DNA from: the human T2T-CHM13v2.0 reference genome, Homo sapiens
Direction: 5' to 3' (one strand)
DNA: 64,000 nucleotides
Assembly: GCF_009914755.1 (NCBI RefSeq)
Contig: NC_060947.1
Position numbers and translations under genes: made by a program. The notes below the pieces were generated by a model. The model ran no database searches. It was given only the letters and a program-made list of their open reading frames with translations, and was not told the DNA's origin. This document shows, piece after piece, positions 34,791-47,019 of the stretch; positions within the stretch are counted from its first letter, which is position 1, and each line of letters starts with the position of its first letter.

Positions 34791-37512
34791 ATTTATTGAT
34801 CAATTTTTTTAACATTACATTTATATTCATTTGGTACCACAGCATGGATTATTTAAAAACTGATGATTACACATTGGTCTCTTTCCAGGGAACTTAGAGG
34901 AATGGTTTAAATTGGTTGCCTATTATATGTAAGTTTGTTTAAAAATATCTAAATTATTTATGCTTCTTTCAATTTATGTAATAGATTTTAAGAGTCCAAA
35001 GATGATGACTCAAACTATTTACTTTGTTTTACTGTGTTTGCAAAATGAGTGAGGTAAAAGACTGGAATTATCTGCCAACATCGTCTGTATTGTGTTATGC
35101 TAGAAACATATAATTAGATGAACATTTTTTACTTATTTTTGTTCTTAAGGTTAAGAGACGACAGCCTTTTCTGACTGGGGAAAATGCTCACATCTTTTTA
35201 GTTGAGACTCACCCTTATGTAGCAATACACTGGCCGGGAAATGTAAAGAAAGTTCTAGGTTTTAAGTAATTAAATTTATGATTATCTTTCCCTAAAGGAC
35301 TCTGTGAATTGGCTCAATAGCTATTTCCTACCTCAGGATTCAAGTTCCATGTTGGGCTTTGGTAAGGACTCCTTCACTCCTACTTCTAGACTGAGTCCCA
35401 AGCTTCCAACCTGAGTATTTGTATCATCTGGGGCTTCTTAGTCATCACCACAAAGTGATCATGAGAGGAACAGGAGACAAATGCAGACCTTAGTCATTTA
35501 CTTATGGCCTGTTTTCCATGGTGGACCAAGTTGAAATTGAACACACCCATATACAAACATCCATACTGTATTGATTCTCCTAAGCCAACTCTACTGGTTG
35601 AACTGTGTGGGAAAGAAACAAAATGTAACTACATGGACTAATCTTGCAATTCCAAGCTAAACAATTATTTAGCATATAGTCTCAGTTTAAGATGCAAAAG
35701 CAGAAACTATTGTGGCCAGAGATTTTAGAATTCTACATCTATACTTGTACTTCACTTTGCCTAGTTGCTGGTTCTTGTCTATGCTCAGTGTAATTTGGGG
35801 CACTTTACTGAAAAATCTGTACTTAAATCAAGTCATTTAATTAATTAGATAATTAATTTAGTTCATTTTTATTTTGGTGAGAACATTTAACATGAGATCT
35901 ACCCTCTCTACAAATTTTTAAATGTACAATGAAGTGTTATTTACTATAGGCACAACGTTGTACAGCAGATTTCTAGAACTTAATCATCTTGCATAAGTGA
36001 AACTTTGTACCGATTGAATAGCAAGTGCCCATTTCCCCCTGCCAGTCCCTGGCAACTGCCACTCTAATTTCTGCTTCTGTGATTTCACTATTTCAGATAC
36101 TTTATATAAGTAAAATAATGCATTATTTGTTCTTCTATAACTGGCTTATTCCACTTAGCATAACGTCCACAAAGATCATCTATGTTATCTCATGTGGCAG
36201 GATTTCATGATTTTTTAATAATGAATAATATTCAATTGTATTTATATACCGTATTTTTTATCTATTTATCTCTAGTTGGACATTTAGGTTGTTTACATAT
36301 CATGGCTATTGTGAATAATGCTGCTATGAGCATGGGAGCGCAGATATGCCTTCGGGATCCATATTTCTATTTAATACCAGTAAATACCCAGAAGTGGGAT
36401 TGCTGGATCATTTGGTAATTCTATTTTAAATTTTCTGAGGAACCTCCGTATTGTTTTTTATAGCAGATCCACCATTCTACAGTCCCACTAACACTGTACC
36501 AGGGTTGCAATTTCATCACATCTTCACCAACACTTGATATCTTTCCTTTTTATTGTAGCCATTCTAAGAGGTATGAGGTGATATCTCATTGTGGTTTTGA
36601 TTTACATTTCCCTGATTATTAGTGATGCTGAACATCTTTTTATATGCCTCATGGCCATTCGTATGTCTTGTTGGGAGAAACGTCGATTCACAGTTTTTGC
36701 TCTTTTTAAATTTGGTTATTTGTTTTTCTGCTACTGAGCTGTAGGAAACCTTTATATATTTGTATATTCGCCCCTTATCAGATATATAGTTCGCAATTTT
36801 TTTTCTCATTCTGTAGGTTGCCTTTTATCTGTTGTTTCCTTTTCTGTGTAGAAGCTTTTTGGTTTGATATAGTCCCCTTTGTCTATTTTTTGCTTTTGTT
36901 GCCTGTGCTTTTGAGGCTACAGCCAAGAAATCATTGCCAAGAACCAACATTATGAAGCTTTCCCTGCTGTGTTTTCTGCTAAGAGTTTTAAAGTTCAGGT
37001 CTTACACTTAAGTCTTTAACTCATTTTTAGTGAATTTTTGTGTGTGGTGTATGGCATGGGTAGAATTTCATACTTTTGCAAGTGAATGTCCAATCTTCCC
37101 AGCATCATTTACTGAGAGGACTCTTTCCCAGTTGAGTGTTCTTGGCACCCTTCGTGAAGGTCTGTTGACTACATGTATGGGTTTAATTCTGGGCTTTCCA
37201 TTCTGTTCCATTGGTTGTATAGGTCTGTCTTTATGCCAGTATCATACTACTGGGTTACTGTAGTTTTGTAATACATTTTGAAATAGTGAAGTATGATGCC
37301 TCTAACTTTTTTTTAACAAGATTGTTTTGGCTATTCTGGGTATTTTGTGGTTCCATATGATTTTAGGATTTTTTCTATTTCTGTAAATAATGCCATTTGA
37401 ATTTTGATAGAAATTTCACTGAATCTGTAGATTGCTTTAGGTAGTATAGGTATTTTAACAATATCAACTCTTAGTCAATTTTCTGTTGCTATCACAGAAT
37501 ACCATAGACTGT

Positions 37513-37816
37513 GACTGGGCGTGGTGGCTCACGCCTGTAATCCCAGCACTTTGGGAGGCCAATGCAGGCAGATCACTTGAGGTCAGGAGATCGAGACCAG
37601 CCTGGCCAACATGGTGAAACCTCGGATCTACTAAAAATACAAAAATTAGCCAGGTGGAGTAGTGGGCACGTGTAATCCCAGCTACTCAGGAGACTGGGGC
37701 AGGATAATTGCTTGAGCCTGGGAGGCGAAGGTTACAGTGAGCTGAGATCGTGCCACTGCACTACAACCTGGGCAACAGAATGAGACTCCATCTCAAAAAA
37801 AAAAAAACAAAAAAAA
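37513..37816 (+). mobile_element. AluSz/Sx inserted in the MST 3' LTR
   Basis: Full Alu plus poly-A; agactgt duplicated on both sides. Confidence 0.93.
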
Positions 37817-38763
37817 CCCAGACTGTGTAATTTATAAAGTTTATTTACCTCATAGTTCTAGAGGTTAGGAAGTCTGAGAGCATGGTACCAGCATCTGCTA
37901 ATAGCCTTCTGGCTGTGTCATAATATGGTGGAGGACATCTTATGGCAAGAGGGAAGAGTGTGTCAGCTCAGATCACTCTTCCTCTTCTCATAGAGCCTCC
38001 AGTACCATCATGGGGGCCCTAGCTTGATGACCTTATTTAATTCTAATTACCTTTCAAAGACCCCATCTCCAAATCCCATTAACATATGGATTTGGGGATT
38101 AAGTTTCCAACACACACACAACATTTAGGGGACACCATCGAACTATAGCGTTCTGCCCCTGGCCCCCAAATTTTATTTTCTTTTCACATGCAAAATGTAT
38201 TAATTCCATTCCAGTAGCCCCAGAGTCGTAACTTGTTTCAGGATCAACTCAGAAGTCCAAAGTCCAGAGTCTCATCTGAATCAGATATAGATGAGACTCA
38301 AAATGTGCAATTTCCTTGCCAGCTGCAAGCCCGTGAGATCAAAACAAGCTATGTATTTGCAAAATGCAATGCTAAGCACAGGATAGTCATTCCTATTAAA
38401 GATGGAGAAAATAAGCAAGAAAAAATAAGTAGCTGGTCTTAGCACATCAAAACCCCAACAGGGAAACAACATTAAACCTTAAAGCTTAGAATGATCTTTC
38501 ACTCCATGTGCCATCTCTGGAATGTACTGGCGTGGGAGGGGGGGTTGGAATCTTCAAAGCCTTGGGCAGTTCCATCCCTGTGGCTTTGCTGTGCTCAGCC
38601 CATGCAGCAGTTTATACAGGTTGGAGTCTTATGCCTGCAGTTCTCCCAAGGGGACTGAATACTTGTAGATCTACAATTCTGAATTCTTGTGGGTAGTCCT
38701 TCCCCTGCAGCTCCACTAGGCATTGCCCTAGTGGGGACTCTCCGTGACAGCTCTAGCACTGAC

Positions 38764-39366
38764 TGAGGTGTGGCTCCTCACAAGAGGGCATTAGCTATGG
38801 GGATCTGCCCGCAGACCCTGACCTAAACGACGGATGAATAAAACGTACACTGACACACAGATATTCTGTTTTGCCAGTCCTGCTGACTGTCCGACCACCT
38901 GCACACCAAGAGAGGTTTGTCATTACGGCCGGCCCTGAGCAGCTCGCACTCCAGGCATTTATTTAGTACAGAATTAACAACAGAAGCTTTGAGTAAACAC
39001 ACTTGTGGATAATTAACATGGTTAAGAGAGTAGTTCTACTAATGATTAAAGCTCAGGTACCGCGGTTTAAAGTAAATACCATTAGGGGGCAATAGCCTTG
39101 GTCAACCTTCCCCCATGAGGGCCATCTGGCTCAAAGGTTAGTTATTGGAGGTAGGGTAAACAGACTTAAATGAGGAAGACTCTGTTGTCCCTAGTATTTA
39201 CCTTATGACCTAATTCTCTAATGTAAGAACCGGCTGCCTTCAGCCTGTTCAATTATTACAAGCTATGTAAGCTTTCGGCCTTCCAAACGGTTTGTGACTA
39301 TTCCCTATAACTTTCCCTAATATGTCCCTTTAATATTTCTGCCACCATCCTGAGTGAATCCCAACA
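38764..39366 (-). mobile_element. LTR22-family (HERV-K HML-5-like) solo LTR inside the MST internal region
   Basis: TG...CA termini. Minus-strand start tgttgggattcactcaggatggtggcagaaatattaaaggg. Perfect 6-bp TSD actgac at 38758-38763 and 39367-39372. Confidence 0.8.
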
Positions 39367-40333
39367 ACTGACCTTACATTTCTGCTCAGCATTGCCCTTG
39401 TAGCGGCTCTCTGCTGTGGCTCTACCCTGTGACAACTCTCTGCCTGGGCCTCCAGGCTGTTCATGCCATCCTTTGAAATCTGGGTGAAGGATGTTCCCAC
39501 AGCTCTTACATTCTGCACATCTCCAGAATTAGCACTTCATGGATGCTGCCAAAGTTTATGTCTCATACCGTTTAGAGTGGTAGGTCAAGTTGCACCTGGA
39601 GCATCTTGTGCCACAGCTGTTATGATGAGGAGTGCTGCACCAGAATGCAAGGAACAGAGACCCAAGGCAGCCCTGGCCAGTGGCCCATCCCTCAAAACCA
39701 TTCTACCCTCCCAGAGCTCTGAGCCTGTAATGGGAGGGGAAGACTCGAAGATCTCCAAGAGTTTTTCTCCTGATGTCCCGATAGTCTCTGGCTTTGTTTT
39801 ATCCATACTAATCTCCTTATCAATTGATCACTTAGTCACACCCTTGGTTTCCTGTGCTGAAAATGCTCTTTCATTCTCTACCACATGTCCAAAATCATTT
39901 CACTCTGCTTTCATTTTAATTACAAATTCTCTCTTCAAATCATCTCTTTCCTCTTTTGTTTTACTATAAGCTGTTAAAAGTAGCCTTGAAACATCCTGAA
40001 TGCTTTGCTGCTTTCGTATATGTTCCACAAGCTATTCCAGTTCATCACTCTTAAATTCTGCCTTCCATAAAGCATTCAACCATGAACATAGTTCAGCCAA
40101 GATTTTTGCTACTTTATAACAAGAATGGCCTTTTCTCCAGTTTCTTTAGTTCCATATGATACCTCATTAGAGTGGCTTTTACTGTCCGTATTTTTATCAA
40201 TATTTTGGTCAAGGCCACTTAAGCAATCTCTAAAATGTTTTAGAATTTCTCTGGTCTTCTCCTTTTTCTGAGCCCTCACCAGAGTCACTGTTAATGCACC
40301 ATTTATGGCAATGCAGGTATTTTTTTTTCCTAG

Positions 40334-40677
<344 letters not shown>

Positions 40678-40993
40678 TCCTCCAGATTCTTACAGCCTCT
40701 ACCCATCACCCAATTCCAAAGCTGTTTCCATATTTTCAGATCTCTGTTATAGCAATGGCCTCACTTCTTGTTGCCAATTTTCTACCTTAAGTGCATTTTC
40801 CATTGCTATGGCAGAATACCATAGACTGGGTAATTTATAAAGAAAAGAAGTTTATTTAGTTCATGGTTCTGGAGTCTGAGAAGTCCAAGAGCATGGCATC
40901 GACATCTGGCAAGGTCCTTTTTGCTTCATCATAACATGGCAAAAAGCATCATGTGACAAGAGGGCAAATGTGTGTTACCTCTCTTCCTCTTTT

Positions 40994-42395
40994 TTTTTTT
41001 TGTTAACTAGTTTCTAAATTGTTATTTATTTTTATTTGTAACAAGCCATTTACTTAAGTTTATGTAAAGGGATAGTTTATGCTTAAAGGATAGCAGAGGT
41101 TGTTGCTGTTCTATTTAGCGTATAGCAAACATGGCCAGATTTTACTTTTGAACTTCCTGGAAGCTCTTCATTGGACCTTGAGCTAACACAATATATCTTT
41201 TGTCACCAAAAGAGTATTATTCTTATGTCATAATGAGAACAATAATTTACATGCTTTGCATAATAAATGCCTAAAAGACATTTTATTTTATGACTGCATT
41301 ATTTTTCTTGCTATAATGGGGATATTGTAAATCATATATTTGTATAATATTGATGGTACTTATTTATTTTTTATATGTTACTGTATGATGTACATTACAA
41401 AATCAAAGCAATTTGTCTTGATCTCTTAATCTTAAGAGTAACACTTTAACTCACTTAATCTTTCTAATGCATATTACAAGTGATGTATACTTTTTTTTGA
41501 AGTTACATACTTGCCAATTTAATTTCAAAGCTACAAACCAAGCTCAAGTCTCAAGTGCAGCAAATGCCTCTGAAATGAGGTTTCTATGGATTCATAAACA
41601 TAAAACAATCAGTGCAAAAGAATAATTGAAATGATTTGTCTCCTACTTTTTTTTTTCTTGTCCCAAGCATTTTTTTTTAATTATACTTTAAGTTCTAGGG
41701 TACATGTGCACAATGTGCAGGTTTGTTACATATGTATACATGTGCCATGTTGGTGTGCTGCACCCATTAACTCGTCATTTACATTAGGTATATCTCCTAA
41801 TGCTATCCCTCCCCGCTCCCCCGACCCCACGACAGGCCCCGGTGTGTGATGTTCCCCTTCCTGTGTCCAAGTGTTCTCATTGTTCATTTCCTACCTATGA
41901 GTGAGAACATGCAGTGTTTGTTTTTTTTGTCCCTGCGATAGTTTGCTGAGAATGATGGTTTCCAACTTCATCCATGTCCCTACAAAGGACATGAACTCAT
42001 CTTTTTTATGGCTGCATAGTATTCCATGGTGTATATGTGCCACATTTTCTTAATCCAGTCTATCATTGATGGACATTTGGGTTGGTTCCAAGTCTTTGCT
42101 ATTGTGAATAGTGCCACAATAAACATACGTGTGCATGTGTCTTTATGGCAGCATGATTTATAATCCTTTGGGTGTATACCCAGTAATGGGATGGCTGGGT
42201 CAAATGGTATTTCTAGTTCTAGATCCTTGAGGAATCCTTACACTGTCTTCCACAATGGTTGAACTGGTTTACAGTCCTATCAACAGTGTCAAAGTGTTCC
42301 TATTTCTCCACATCCTCTCCAGCACCTGTTGTTTCCTGACTTTTTAATGATCACCATTCTAACTGGTGCAAGATGGTATCTCATTGTGGTTTTGA
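40994..42395 (-). mobile_element. 5'-truncated L1PA (L1PA4-like, 41670-42395) with a ~670-bp 3' transduction (41002-41669)
   Basis: One TSD, ttacc(t/c)ctcttcctctttt at 40975-40993 and 42396-42414, encloses poly-T, unique DNA, a second poly-T and the L1PA 3' UTR. Confidence 0.88.
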
Positions 42396-42772
42396 TTACC
42401 CCTCTTCCTCTTTTAATAAAGCCTCCAGTACAATCAGGGAGGCTCCACTTTAATGACCTTCTCTAGTCCTAATTACGTCCCAAAGGCGCCACCTCCAAAT
42501 ACCATCAACATACAAAATTGGGGATTAAATTTCCAACACATGAAATTTTGGGGACACATTCAAACCATAGCAGGTAATATGGACATTTTAACAATATTCA
42601 CTCCTTCAATCCATTAACATGACATGTCTTTCCATTTATTTGTGTTTCCTTTAATTTCTTCATCTGTGTTTTGTATTTTTTGGTGTATAAGTTTTTTATT
42701 TCTTAGTATTTTAAGTATTTTAAATGTTTATTTAAAACTTAAGTTTATTTCTAAGTATTTTATTCACCTTGA

Positions 42773-43177
<405 letters not shown>

Positions 43178-43602
43178 TTGATTTTGTATTTTTAAACTTT
43201 ACTAATTTTTAAATTAGTTCTGTTTATTCTGGAGTATTTAGGGTTTTCTACACGGAAGATCATGTTACCTGCAAAGAGATTTTATATCTTTCTTTCCTAT
43301 TTGAATGCCTTTTATTTATTTTCCTTGCCTAATTGCTTTTGCTAGGATTCCAGTACTATGTTGAATAGAAGTTGTGAGAGTGGGCATTCTTGCCTTGCTC
43401 CTAATCTTAGAAGAAAAGCCTTCAGTTTTTTATTATTGAATGTGATGTTAGTTTTGTTTATTATGTTGAGGTAATTTATCCTTATTCCTAGTTTGTTGAG
43501 TGTTTTTATCATGATATGGGGTATTACATTTTGTCAAATGCTTTTTTTATTACATCTGTTGAGACGATCATGTGATTTTTATCCTTTATTCTGTCAATGC
43601 AG

Positions 43603-45877: not shown

Positions 45878-46327
<450 letters not shown>

Positions 46328-46578
46328 CCATGAATGTATTTTATAGTTACTTTTAATACTTTTGTCTTTTAAGTTATATAATATGGTTAAAAGTGATTTA
46401 CCCACCAGCATTACAGTATTATAATATTCTGAATTTGCCTATATATTTACCTTGACCATCGAATTTTATGCTTCTGTATGCTTTCGTTTTGCTGTTTAGC
46501 AACCTTTTATTTCAATTTCTGCATTTTTTGTAAGGCATGTCTAGTGTTAATGAACTCCTGAAGCTTTTGTTTGTTTAG

Positions 46579-47019
<441 letters not shown>

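What the first reader, a model, noticed from the sequence alone, without database searches (positions are those of the whole stretch)
40975..42414. L1-mediated 3' transduction of ~670 bp of foreign DNA into an LTR
Seen: the MST 5' LTR breaks at ...ttacctctcttcctctttt and resumes at ttacccctcttcctctttt|aa, a 19-bp TSD with one mismatch at a TTTT/AA endonuclease site. On the minus strand the insert reads: L1PA 3' end (42395-41679), short A tail, ~670 bp of AT-rich non-L1 sequence (41669-41002), AATAAA (41030-41025) about 23 nt before a second poly-A (41001-40990). Established: this is the signature of L1 read-through to a downstream polyadenylation site. Inference: the tag identifies the source L1 locus and possibly sibling insertions. 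An extra A tract at 41647-41656 could record a serial transduction.
Basis: partly seen in the sequence, partly recalled or inferred. Interest (0 to 1): 0.75.

Follow-up and report, generated by a model that had tools for sequence, protein, structure and literature searches.

The report
L1 carrying three stacked transduction tags
A truncated L1 that landed in an old MaLR-type LTR on chrX drags behind it DNA copied in turn from chromosomes 5, 6 and 15, a fossil record of several successive jumps whose parent L1 copies are absent from this reference; it is a neat example of a known process.

Summary
A 19-bp target-site duplication (18/19) at a TTTT/AA site brackets a 1,402-bp insert. On the minus strand this reads: 717 bp of L1 3' end, A9, about 670 bp of non-L1 DNA, AATAAA, poly-A.

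The "670 bp" is not one read-through. It is three segments from three chromosomes: chr5 (146/153 identical), chr6 (112/119) and chr15 (337 of 358 aligned bases). They share one orientation and are separated by A-tracts. A 13-bp unmappable micro-tag precedes them.

All three source loci lack an L1. Each segment starts at a TT|AA site in its source. Two of the three end about 20-30 nt after ATTAAA or AATAAA.

The best reading is a serial (concatenated) 3' transduction through at least three "parentless" progenitors. No siblings were found in T2T-CHM13.

Tag-to-source divergence (K2P 0.058) dates the event to about 13-29 My.

The host is a real two-LTR MaLR-type element on the minus strand (LTR pair K2P 0.26, about 60-110 My). 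The MST and L1PA subfamily names could not be checked with any tool.

This is a known kind of event and a good specimen of it. Interest is moderate.

The parts
40975..40993 (.). Target-site duplication, copy next to the final poly-A (19 bp).
   Evidence: it matches 42396-42414 at 18/19. No other match with up to 2 mismatches occurs in the window, against 0.01 expected from shuffles.
40994..41001 (-). Final A-tail. It is 8 A beyond the 4 A that belong to the TSD, so the full A-run is 40990-41001.
41002..41364 (-). Tag segment 3, the youngest. It was copied from chr15:24707650-24708007 (minus strand). That source lies downstream of the annotated TVP23BP1 pseudogene and on the strand opposite to it, presumably its unannotated 3'-UTR part. 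The segment carries two AATAAA about 24-36 nt before its end.
   Evidence: 337 of 358 aligned bases are identical (21 differences, plus 5 gap columns). The other TVP23B/C gene and pseudogene copies are only 75-80% identical.
41365..41373 (-). A-rich junction (A6 with interrupting T) between segments 2 and 3. Read as the remnant of a progenitor's poly-A tail.
41374..41492 (-). Tag segment 2, copied from chr6:46816254-46816372 (minus strand, with no gene overlapping in the table).
   Evidence: 112/119 identical. In the source the copied stretch stops right before a (TG)n run.
41491..41498 (-). A8 tract between segments 1 and 2. Its end bases also match the two sources.
41498..41650 (-). Tag segment 1, copied from chr5:112755700-112755852 (minus strand), inside the EPB41L4A gene span and on that gene's strand. 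ATTAAA lies 20-26 nt before its end.
   Evidence: 146/153 identical.
41647..41656 (-). A10 tract. Its last 4 A also match the chr5 source.
41657..41669 (-). 13-bp micro-tag between two A-tracts. It may be a very short earliest transduction. Its source cannot be mapped.
   Evidence: with flanking A it occurs 7 times in T2T. Five of the other six sites lie in one interspersed repeat family, and none lies next to an L1 tail. Searches found no L1 tail carrying it.
41670..41678 (-). A9. Read as the genome-encoded tail of the ancestral L1.
41679..42395 (-). 5'-truncated L1 3' end, 717 bp: the end of ORF2 plus the 3' UTR. The ORF2 remnant is broken by 4 in-frame stops and at least 1 frameshift.
   Evidence: LINE-1 ORF2p, E 1.7e-22. 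(39 copies at 94-95%). (counts of breaks).
42396..42414 (.). Target-site duplication, copy next to the truncated L1 5' end.
40781..42572 (-). 5' LTR of the host MaLR-type element, split by the L1 composite. Its own sequence is 40781-40993 plus 42415-42572.
   Evidence: similarity to the partner LTR; 39 genomic copies at 80-85% identity, 30 of them starting exactly at the terminal base (the other 9 start 2-8 bases in); 40 scored of 1330 candidates.
38151..40780 (-). Internal part of the LTR element. It holds an Alu at about 40386-40677. Its inner genes were not examined.
   Evidence: A purine-rich tract abuts the 3' LTR on the minus strand.
37465..38150 (-). 3' LTR of the host element. It holds an Alu at about 37515-37820.
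   Evidence: the non-self copies (39 of 40 scored, of 315 candidates) are 75-84% identical, and many are the same loci as for the 5' LTR.
37440..37464 (.). 25-bp flanking duplication of the LTR element, left copy. The right copy is 42573-42597.
   Evidence: 20/24 in the printed alignment, and 21/25 by my count once the adjoining G at 42573 is added. Both copies abut the outer LTR ends. 6 of 5000 random 40-mer pairs score as high.
42573..42597 (.). 25-bp flanking duplication of the LTR element, right copy.

Best explanation
The insert is a serial (concatenated) L1 3' transduction.

Proposed history (inferred):
1. An active primate L1 lineage moved at least three times, possibly four, before the copy seen here.
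2. At each stop, transcription ran past the L1's own weak poly-A signal and past the tags it already carried. It ended at a signal in the new flank, so the RNA gained one more segment.
3. Reverse transcription at the next site wrote L1 plus all earlier tags into DNA.
4. The order on the L1 sense strand gives the itinerary: unknown locus (13 bp) -> chr5 (153 bp) -> chr6 (119 bp) -> chr15 (363 bp) -> chrX.
5. On chrX a 5'-truncated, dead copy was inserted by target-primed reverse transcription at a TTTT/AA site inside the 5' LTR of an older MaLR-type element, in an intron of SYTL5 and antisense to the gene.
6. The full-length progenitors at chr5, chr6 and chr15 are absent from this reference. 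I infer that they never reached fixation.

Shown: the segment map, the empty sources, the junction motifs, the PAS and the TSD.

Inferred: the order of events, and that the progenitors were full-length and are lost.

A further inference is that a carried-over PAS loses its downstream element at each copy. This would favour further read-through.
For: 1. One 18/19 TSD pair encloses the whole composite, with no internal TSDs.
2. The tag splits into three collinear, same-strand segments. Their only other genomic copies lie on chr5, chr6 and chr15, at 146/153, 112/119 and 337/358 identical.
3. Every segment is followed by an A-tract: A8, an interrupted A6 and a final A8. The L1 tail A9 and an A10 precede them.
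4. In all 3 of 3 source loci the copied stretch begins exactly at TT|AA (tt|AAAA, tt|AAGT, ttt|AATAAA), which is the L1 endonuclease motif given in PMC11838501 (passages read). The chance of TT|AA at all three, estimated from the loci themselves, is 7.5e-7. For TT| alone it is 4.6e-3.
5. In 2 of 3 sources the stretch ends at ..CA, 20-36 nt after ATTAAA or AATAAA. PMC13009371 (passages read) reports a PAS 10-30 bp upstream of 79% of transduction ends.
6. No same-orientation L1 lies within 500 bp of any source. "Parentless" sources are common in print (PMC13141329, passages read).
7. The chr15 segment lies on the strand opposite to the TVP23BP1 pseudogene and to every TVP23B/C copy matched. It is therefore not a piece of that mRNA.
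8. Three clocks agree: the TSD at 1/19, the tags at p = 0.056, and the best L1 copies at 5-6%.
9. Sequential accumulation of transduced pieces from several source loci is in print for SVA, with 27 "concatenated" cases (PMC12593883, passage read).
Against: - No intermediate was found. No locus in T2T carries L1 plus a partial tag set, and there are no siblings. The series therefore rests on junction anatomy alone.
- The chr6 segment has no canonical PAS 10-30 nt before its end. It has only a variant hexamer at the very end and a (TG)n run just downstream.
- The junction between segments 2 and 3 is a short, interrupted A-tract.
- The 13-bp micro-tag cannot be mapped and may be tail heterogeneity rather than a transduction.
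- The order of divergences (chr5 lowest) does not add support, although the differences are within noise.
- Some regions of the reference are closed and only the best candidates are scored, so a missed copy cannot be excluded.
Confidence: 0.85

Rival explanations
1. A single retrotransposition event with repeated template switching or RNA ligation. The L1 reverse transcriptase started on a polyadenylated chr15 RNA. It then jumped in turn to the tails of a chr6 RNA, a chr5 RNA and finally an L1 RNA, stitching four cDNAs into one insert.
For: - Template switching and RNA ligation are accepted routes to chimeric L1 insertions (PMC11838501, passages read).
- Every segment ends in an A-tract, as polyadenylated RNAs would.
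- Segments begin with A-rich bases, which could give microhomology to a poly-A tail.
- A 10/14 similarity between the end of the chr6 segment and the chr15 upstream flank showed up.
- No intermediates were found.
Against: - In the printed chimeras the other RNA sits 5' of a 3' L1 part (PMC11838501). Here L1 is the 5'-most part and has its own tail. The first template would then be a non-L1 RNA, against cis preference (my knowledge).
- The 5' ends of all 3 segments sit at TT|AA in the sources. A switch point does not require the TT (P = 4.6e-3 for TT at all three).
- By the gene table, one source lies inside a gene span on that gene's strand, one overlaps no gene, and one lies opposite a pseudogene. 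None is a known abundant mRNA 3' end. Exon tables for those chromosomes were not available to me.
Confidence: 0.06
2. One ordinary 3' transduction of ~670 bp from a single donor locus.
For: - The outer anatomy is that of a single transduction.
- In the serial model the last step is indeed a single read-through from chr15.
Against: - No locus in T2T holds the 668 bp contiguously apart from the window itself.
- The three parts map to three chromosomes.
- They are separated by A-tracts that are absent from the sources.
Confidence: 0.02
3. Independent nested insertions: several separate retrocopies or orphan transductions that happened to land one after another at the same spot.
For: Retroelements do nest. 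This very region holds Alus inside the LTR element and the LTR element inside an older L1-like sequence.
Against: - Each insertion would make its own TSD, yet only one pair exists and it encloses everything.
- Each later insert would have had to hit the exact 5' junction of the previous one, three times.
Confidence: 0.02

Closest known systems
L1 3' transduction (read-through of the L1 poly-A signal)
   Same: L1 3' end, A-tract, foreign DNA, PAS, poly-A, a single TSD and an endonuclease-type target. The sources have no L1, the "parentless" configuration described in PMC13141329. Short tags are the rule: 71% are under 100 bp in PMC13009371.
   Different: The tag is not one flank but three, or four with the micro-tag, from different chromosomes.
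[quoted passage not shown]
   Same: Pieces from several source loci sit in tandem on one element. This shows that offspring became sources in turn.
   Different: - Here the carrier is an L1, not an SVA.
- The event is old and fixed (about 13-29 My) rather than polymorphic.
- All intermediates are missing.
- I recall serial L1 transductions from Goodier 2000, Macfarlane 2013 and Tubio 2014, but none of these papers was held, so that rests on recall.
- The supplement of PMC12593883, which may give the largest number of pieces seen, was closed.
Chimeric L1 insertions by template switching or RNA ligation (U6/L1, Alu/L1, mRNA/L1; PMC11838501)
   Same: Several unrelated sequences in one orientation within one TSD pair at an endonuclease site.
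   Different: Printed chimeras have the partner RNA 5' of the L1. Here the partners are 3' of a complete L1 3' end with its own tail, and each starts at an endonuclease-type site in its source.
ERVL-MaLR LTR retrotransposons (MST / MLT / THE1 groups; PMC10735291)
   Same: - Two LTRs of about 370 bp in direct orientation around an internal part of about 2.3 kb net.
- The LTR belongs to a dispersed family of over 1000 copies.
- The age estimate is compatible with the printed MST time frame.
   Different: - It is flanked by a 25-bp duplication instead of the 4-6 bp that I recall for LTR elements.
- The MST label itself was not testable.

Membership tests
L1 3' transduction | An L1 3' end with an A-tract, followed in the same orientation by non-L1 DNA that ends in a second poly-A. 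| tested here: met
L1 3' transduction | One TSD pair encloses L1 plus tag, and the target resembles TTTT/AA. | tested here: met
   (18/19; 0 of 100 shuffles gave 2 matches).
L1 3' transduction | A PAS lies 10-30 nt before the terminal poly-A. | tested here: met
   AATAAA lies 23 nt before the A-run.
L1 3' transduction | The tag maps elsewhere, directly 3' of an L1. | tested here: not met
   0 of 3 source loci have a same-orientation L1 within 500 bp. All three look like empty sites (the parentless form).
Serial / concatenated transduction | The tag is made of two or more collinear, same-strand segments from different loci. | tested here: met
   chr5, chr6 and chr15.
Serial / concatenated transduction | Each segment is followed by an A-tract that is absent from its source. 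| tested here: met
   3 of 3. The middle one is short and interrupted.
Serial / concatenated transduction | Each segment starts at an L1 endonuclease-type site in its source. | tested here: met
   3 of 3 at TT|AA, with chance 7.5e-7.
Serial / concatenated transduction | Each segment ends 10-30 nt after a PAS. | tested here: inconclusive
   2 of 3 are canonical. The chr6 segment has none in that range, only a (TG)n run downstream.
Serial / concatenated transduction | Intermediate elements with partial tag sets exist. | tested here: not met
   each segment has only its source and the window copy in T2T. Other genomes could not be searched.
Template-switch / ligation L1 chimera | The partner RNA is joined 5' of a 3' L1 part, and the partner is a known cellular RNA. 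| tested here: not met
   (the partners are 3' of the L1). (by the gene table, the sources lie inside a gene span, in a gene-free stretch, and opposite a pseudogene).
L1PA subfamily (primate L1) | A match to a named subfamily consensus or its diagnostic positions. | not testable with these tools
   No repeat library was available. Only the human LINE-1 ORF2p match and 94-95% genomic copies were obtained. The paper with subfamily ages was not held.
ERVL-MaLR, MST group | Two LTRs in direct orientation around an internal part, with the LTR a member of a dispersed family. | tested here: met
ERVL-MaLR, MST group | The LTR matches the MST consensus rather than MLT1 or THE1. | not testable with these tools
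No Dfam or Repbase library was available.
ERVL-MaLR, MST group | A short (4-6 bp) integrase-type TSD. This norm is recalled, not taken from a call. | tested here: not met
   a 25-bp duplication (20/24 printed; 21/25 by my count) abuts both outer LTR ends.

The most novel reading that the evidence does not exclude
The composite is a four-generation travel log of one L1 lineage active roughly 13-29 My ago. It preserves the exact insertion points of three or four progenitor copies that are absent from this reference. If such multi-tag fossils are common among the sequence left unannotated next to L1 tails, extinct "hot" L1 lineages and their lost alleles could be reconstructed genome-wide. The bolder alternative that my evidence does not exclude is a single-event, multi-template reverse transcription with L1 as the last template. 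I know of no description of this, but I made no search aimed at it.
Probability: 0.1. Interest if true: 0.6.

Novelty: new member of a known kind. Interest (0 to 1): 0.42.

Why it matters
- It shows, in one fixed insertion, that L1 offspring became sources again several times. About 630 bp of DNA from three autosomes was thereby shuffled onto the X.
- It marks three former L1 insertion sites that today look empty. This gives direct evidence for active progenitors that are no longer present.
- It is a caution for annotation. A TVP23B-like fragment and two "unique" stretches on chrX are cargo of an L1, not local sequence or independent pseudogene fragments.
- It has no evident effect on SYTL5, because it is intronic and antisense to the gene.

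Tried and rejected
- **Pfam.** A scan of four open stretches of the L1 part found 0 of 4 with any family. The PDB sequence search gave the identification instead.
- **13-bp micro-tag.** I searched for a source or sibling.
  - A 101-bp query across the L1 tail gave 5 other hits. I fetched the 3 that reached into the micro-tag. Two share only the first 6 bases of the 13-mer, and the third matches it only loosely before diverging.
  - The 17-mer pattern gave 6 other sites. Five lie in one interspersed repeat, and none lies beside an L1 tail.
  - The source therefore stays unknown.
- **L1 inside the source loci.** I found none, except a 22-bp L1-like hit in the opposite orientation about 170-190 bp from the chr15 site. 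I rejected it as a progenitor.
- **Two solo LTRs of different families.** I considered this because the partner LTR (77.6% identical) is not among the best copies of the 5' LTR (80-85%). I rejected it. The two LTRs hit largely the same loci, and the 3' LTR is simply more decayed.
- **Literature on serial L1 transductions.**
  - Searches found no L1 paper using "serial", "sequential", "consecutive" or "concatenated" transduction.
  - The only printed statement I found concerns SVA (PMC12593883, one passage).
  - PMC10606232 and PMC3525338 gave no passage for my terms.
  - PMC156586, PMC1356131, PMC3880804 and PMC4380235 are not held.
  - What I say about L1PA subfamily ages, neutral substitution rates and earlier serial L1 cases is therefore recalled.
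  - All papers cited were seen as passages only (find mode), never in full. Supplements were closed.
- **Subfamily names.** L1PAx and MSTx could not be tested because no repeat library is on hand.
Full report
**1. What is there**

- The stretch ttacctctcttcctctttt (40975-40993) recurs as ttacccctcttcctctttt (42396-42414).
- With up to two mismatches this 19-mer has only these two matches in the 64-kb window. Shuffles expect 0.01, and 0 of 100 shuffles reached two matches.
- Between the copies lie 1,402 bp.

On the minus strand these 1,402 bp read as follows:

| Feature | Window coordinates |
|---|---|
| L1 3' fragment (717 bp) | 42395-41679 |
| A9 | 41678-41670 |
| 13 bases | 41669-41657 |
| A10 | 41656-41647 |
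| A+T-rich DNA running to 41002 | 41646-41002 |
| Two AATAAA | 41036-41031 and 41030-41025 |
| A12, whose last four A belong to the duplication | 41001-40990 |

The empty target reads TT|AAAA on the L1 sense strand.

The partner LTR of the same host element carries the duplicated stretch once. Both copies align to about 37976-37986. This serves as an internal empty-site control.

**2. The L1 part**

- One open stretch of it matches residues 1195-1236 of human LINE-1 ORF2 protein in the PDB. Four distinct chains matched, with best E 1.7e-22.
- Pfam gave nothing for 4 of 4 fragments.
- In the genome search, 40 of 7502 candidates were scored. The 39 other than the window itself are 94-95% identical over essentially the full 717 bp (11 rows at 95%, 28 at 94%).
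- The ORF2 remnant is 5'-truncated. It carries 4 in-frame stops and at least one frameshift.
No tool here can name them.

**3. The tag is a mosaic**

Searching the 668 bp against the whole reference gave 12 matches from 11 candidates. No locus holds it contiguously except the window.

| Segment | Window coordinates | Source in T2T-CHM13 | Identity |
|---|---|---|---|
| 1 | 41650-41498 | chr5:112755700-112755852 | 146/153 |
| 2 | 41492-41374 | chr6:46816254-46816372 | 112/119 |
| 3 | 41364-41002 | chr15:24707650-24708007 | 337/358 aligned (21 differences) plus 5 gap columns |

All three match on one strand.

- The remaining matches are to TVP23B and TVP23C or lie beside their annotated pseudogenes, apart from two on chr14 with no TVP23 annotation nearby. 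All are 75-80% identical to segment 3.
- Gene spans place the chr5 source inside the EPB41L4A gene span, on that gene's strand.
- No gene overlaps the chr6 source.
- The chr15 source lies 712 bp downstream of the annotated TVP23BP1 pseudogene and on the opposite strand. Every hit that lies in or beside an annotated TVP23 gene or pseudogene is likewise on the strand opposite to that annotation.
- Segment 3 is therefore not a piece of TVP23B mRNA.

**4. Junction anatomy**

In each source the copied stretch is continuous with its flanks. The flanks show no L1, no A-tract and no duplication.

- Within 500 bp no same-orientation L1 is present. There is one 22-bp L1-like hit in the opposite orientation near the chr15 site.
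- The 5' edge of every segment lies at TT|AA in its source: ...ccttatt|AAAAGT (chr5), ...ttacatt|AAGTAT (chr6) and ...ttgcttt|AATAAA (chr15).
- An edge found by extending through A always has a non-A on its left. Allowing for that, the frequency of TT|AA in the three loci is 0.0035, 0.0154 and 0.0139, with product 7.5e-7. For TT| alone the product is 4.6e-3.
- TT/AAAA is the endonuclease motif as printed in PMC11838501.
- The chr5 stretch ends at ...CTTCA, with ATTAAA 20-26 nt upstream.
- The chr15 stretch ends at ...TTAACA, with two AATAAA 24-36 nt upstream.
- The chr6 stretch has no canonical signal in that range and stops right before a long (TG)n run.
- In the window each segment is followed by an A-tract that its source lacks: A8, then T-A6-T-A, then A8 before the duplication.

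**5. Mechanism**

The simplest account is a series of ordinary 3' transductions. An L1 inserted at the chr5 site and read through into its flank. The offspring, now carrying the chr5 piece, inserted at the chr6 site and did the same. Then the same happened at chr15. The last RNA was reverse-transcribed, 5'-truncated, into the LTR on chrX.

The 13-base stretch between A9 and A10 may record a still earlier stop, with cleavage a few bases into the flank downstream of the L1's own signal.

- Its 17-mer with flanking A occurs 7 times in T2T, against 0 for the reversed control.
- Five of the 6 other sites lie in one interspersed repeat, and none lies beside an L1 tail.
- The three L1 tails fetched as apparent matches share only its first 6 bases, or match it only loosely before diverging.
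- Its origin is therefore open.

In print:

- Short tags are common, with 71% under 100 bp.
- 79% of transduction ends have a PAS 10-30 bp upstream (PMC13009371).
- Sources without an L1 ("parentless") are common (PMC13141329).
- Pieces from several source loci on one element are described for SVA (PMC12593883; 27 cases).

That the progenitors were full-length and were lost before fixation is inference. So is the idea that a transduced PAS, stripped of its downstream element, favours further read-through.

**6. Rivals**

- **Single-event multi-template switching.** This would also give A-tracts between pieces and A-rich 5' edges. It does not predict TT before each edge. It puts a non-L1 RNA as the first template. 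It needs polyadenylated RNAs from three sources that the gene table places inside a gene span, in a stretch with no gene, and opposite a pseudogene. Printed chimeras have the partner 5' of the L1 (PMC11838501). I give it 0.06.
- **Single donor locus.** Excluded for this reference.
- **Nested independent insertions.** These would leave internal duplications, and none exists.

What weakens the serial reading is told in full:

- No intermediate or sibling was found in T2T.
- The chr6 signal is weak.
- One A-tract is short and interrupted.
- Closed regions, and the scoring of best candidates only, mean that absence is not proven.

**7. Age**

- Segment-to-source differences are 7/153, 7/119 and 21/358. 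Summed counts give p = 0.056 ± 0.009 and K2P 0.058.
- With rates of 2.2e-9 to 1.0e-9 per site per year (recalled values) this is 13-29 My.
- The duplication (1/19) and the best L1 copies (5-6%) agree.
- By recall this bracket corresponds to middle L1PA subfamilies. The paper with subfamily ages was not held.

**8. The host element**

It is real and older.

- Two LTRs in direct orientation lie at 37465-38150 and 40781-42572. They enclose an internal part at 38151-40780.
- Each LTR or internal part holds later insertions: Alus at about 37515-37820 and 40386-40677, and the L1 composite.
- Minus-strand orientation is supported in three ways.
  - A purine-rich tract abuts the 3' LTR.
  - An AATAAA is kept in both LTRs about 70 nt from their 3' ends.
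  - 30 of the 39 genomic copies begin exactly at base 42572, and the other 9 begin 2-8 bases in.
- Compared piece by piece, never joined, the LTR pair gives K2P 0.31 (n 160), 0.13 (n 34) and 0.25 (n 170).
- Summed counts give 78/364 and K2P 0.26, or about 59-109 My by rate.
- The 5' LTR piece has 39 copies at 80-85% (40 scored of 1330 candidates). The 3' LTR piece has 39 copies at 75-84% (40 scored of 315), largely at the same loci.
- This is one dispersed family, and the 3' LTR is the more decayed.
- The age fits the printed time frame for MST-type MaLRs: some before the haplorhine-strepsirrhine split, others within the last 70 My, with activity until about 45 My (PMC10735291, passages).
- Whether it is MST rather than MLT1 or THE1 cannot be tested without a repeat library. 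Naming by inner genes was not attempted.

**9. Verdict**

- Stacked transductions are in print only for SVA among the papers I could read. For L1 I rely on recall.
- This case is a clean, old, fixed L1 example with three mapped empty parents.
- Interest is moderate (0.42).

Noticed in passing
window 37440-37464 and 42573-42597: The two-LTR element is flanked by a 25-bp direct duplication that abuts both outer LTR ends (20/24 in the printed alignment; 21/25 by my count with the adjoining G). 6 of 5000 random 40-mer pairs score as high. LTR elements normally leave 4-6 bp (recalled), so this long duplication is unexplained.
   Followed up: partly
window 36277-36602, and the flanks at about 37300-37464 and 42573-42830: An older L1-like sequence in the same (minus) orientation hosts the LTR element. 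Stretches 36277-36342 and 36521-36602 are 72-74% like the young L1's ORF2 end (families D5 and D6). That the immediate flanks are L1 is my recall only.
   Followed up: no
window 37515-37820, 40386-40677, about 42878-43180 and about 46028-46940: Several Alu copies lie here. One is inside the 3' LTR and one inside the internal part of the LTR element. They were called Alu by eye, not by a tool.
   Followed up: no
L013, L015-L018 (chr2, chr5, chr6, chr10 and chr11 sites): The 17-mer holding the 13-bp micro-tag is part of an interspersed repeat family, with shared flanks at 5 of 6 other genomic sites. I did not name the family.
   Followed up: partly
L010 (chr6 source), immediately 3' of the copied stretch: A long (TG)n run starts right after the point where the chr6 segment ends. 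It could have served as a GU-rich downstream element for a weak poly-A site.
   Followed up: no
L002 (chr15 source), about 170-190 bp from the junction: A 22-bp L1-like match lies in the orientation opposite to the tag. Separately, 10 of 14 bases are alike between the end of the chr6 segment and the chr15 upstream flank. Both are probably chance.
   Followed up: partly
window 40685-41590 and 42401-42486: The RefSeq soft-mask leaves most of both LTRs and the tag unmasked, while the L1 part is masked. The mask is therefore not a full repeat annotation.
   Followed up: no
window 38110-38119: A short (AC) run lies in the 3' LTR near its 5' end. This coincides with the part of that LTR where many genomic copies stop matching: their matches start at query base 37.
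   Followed up: no
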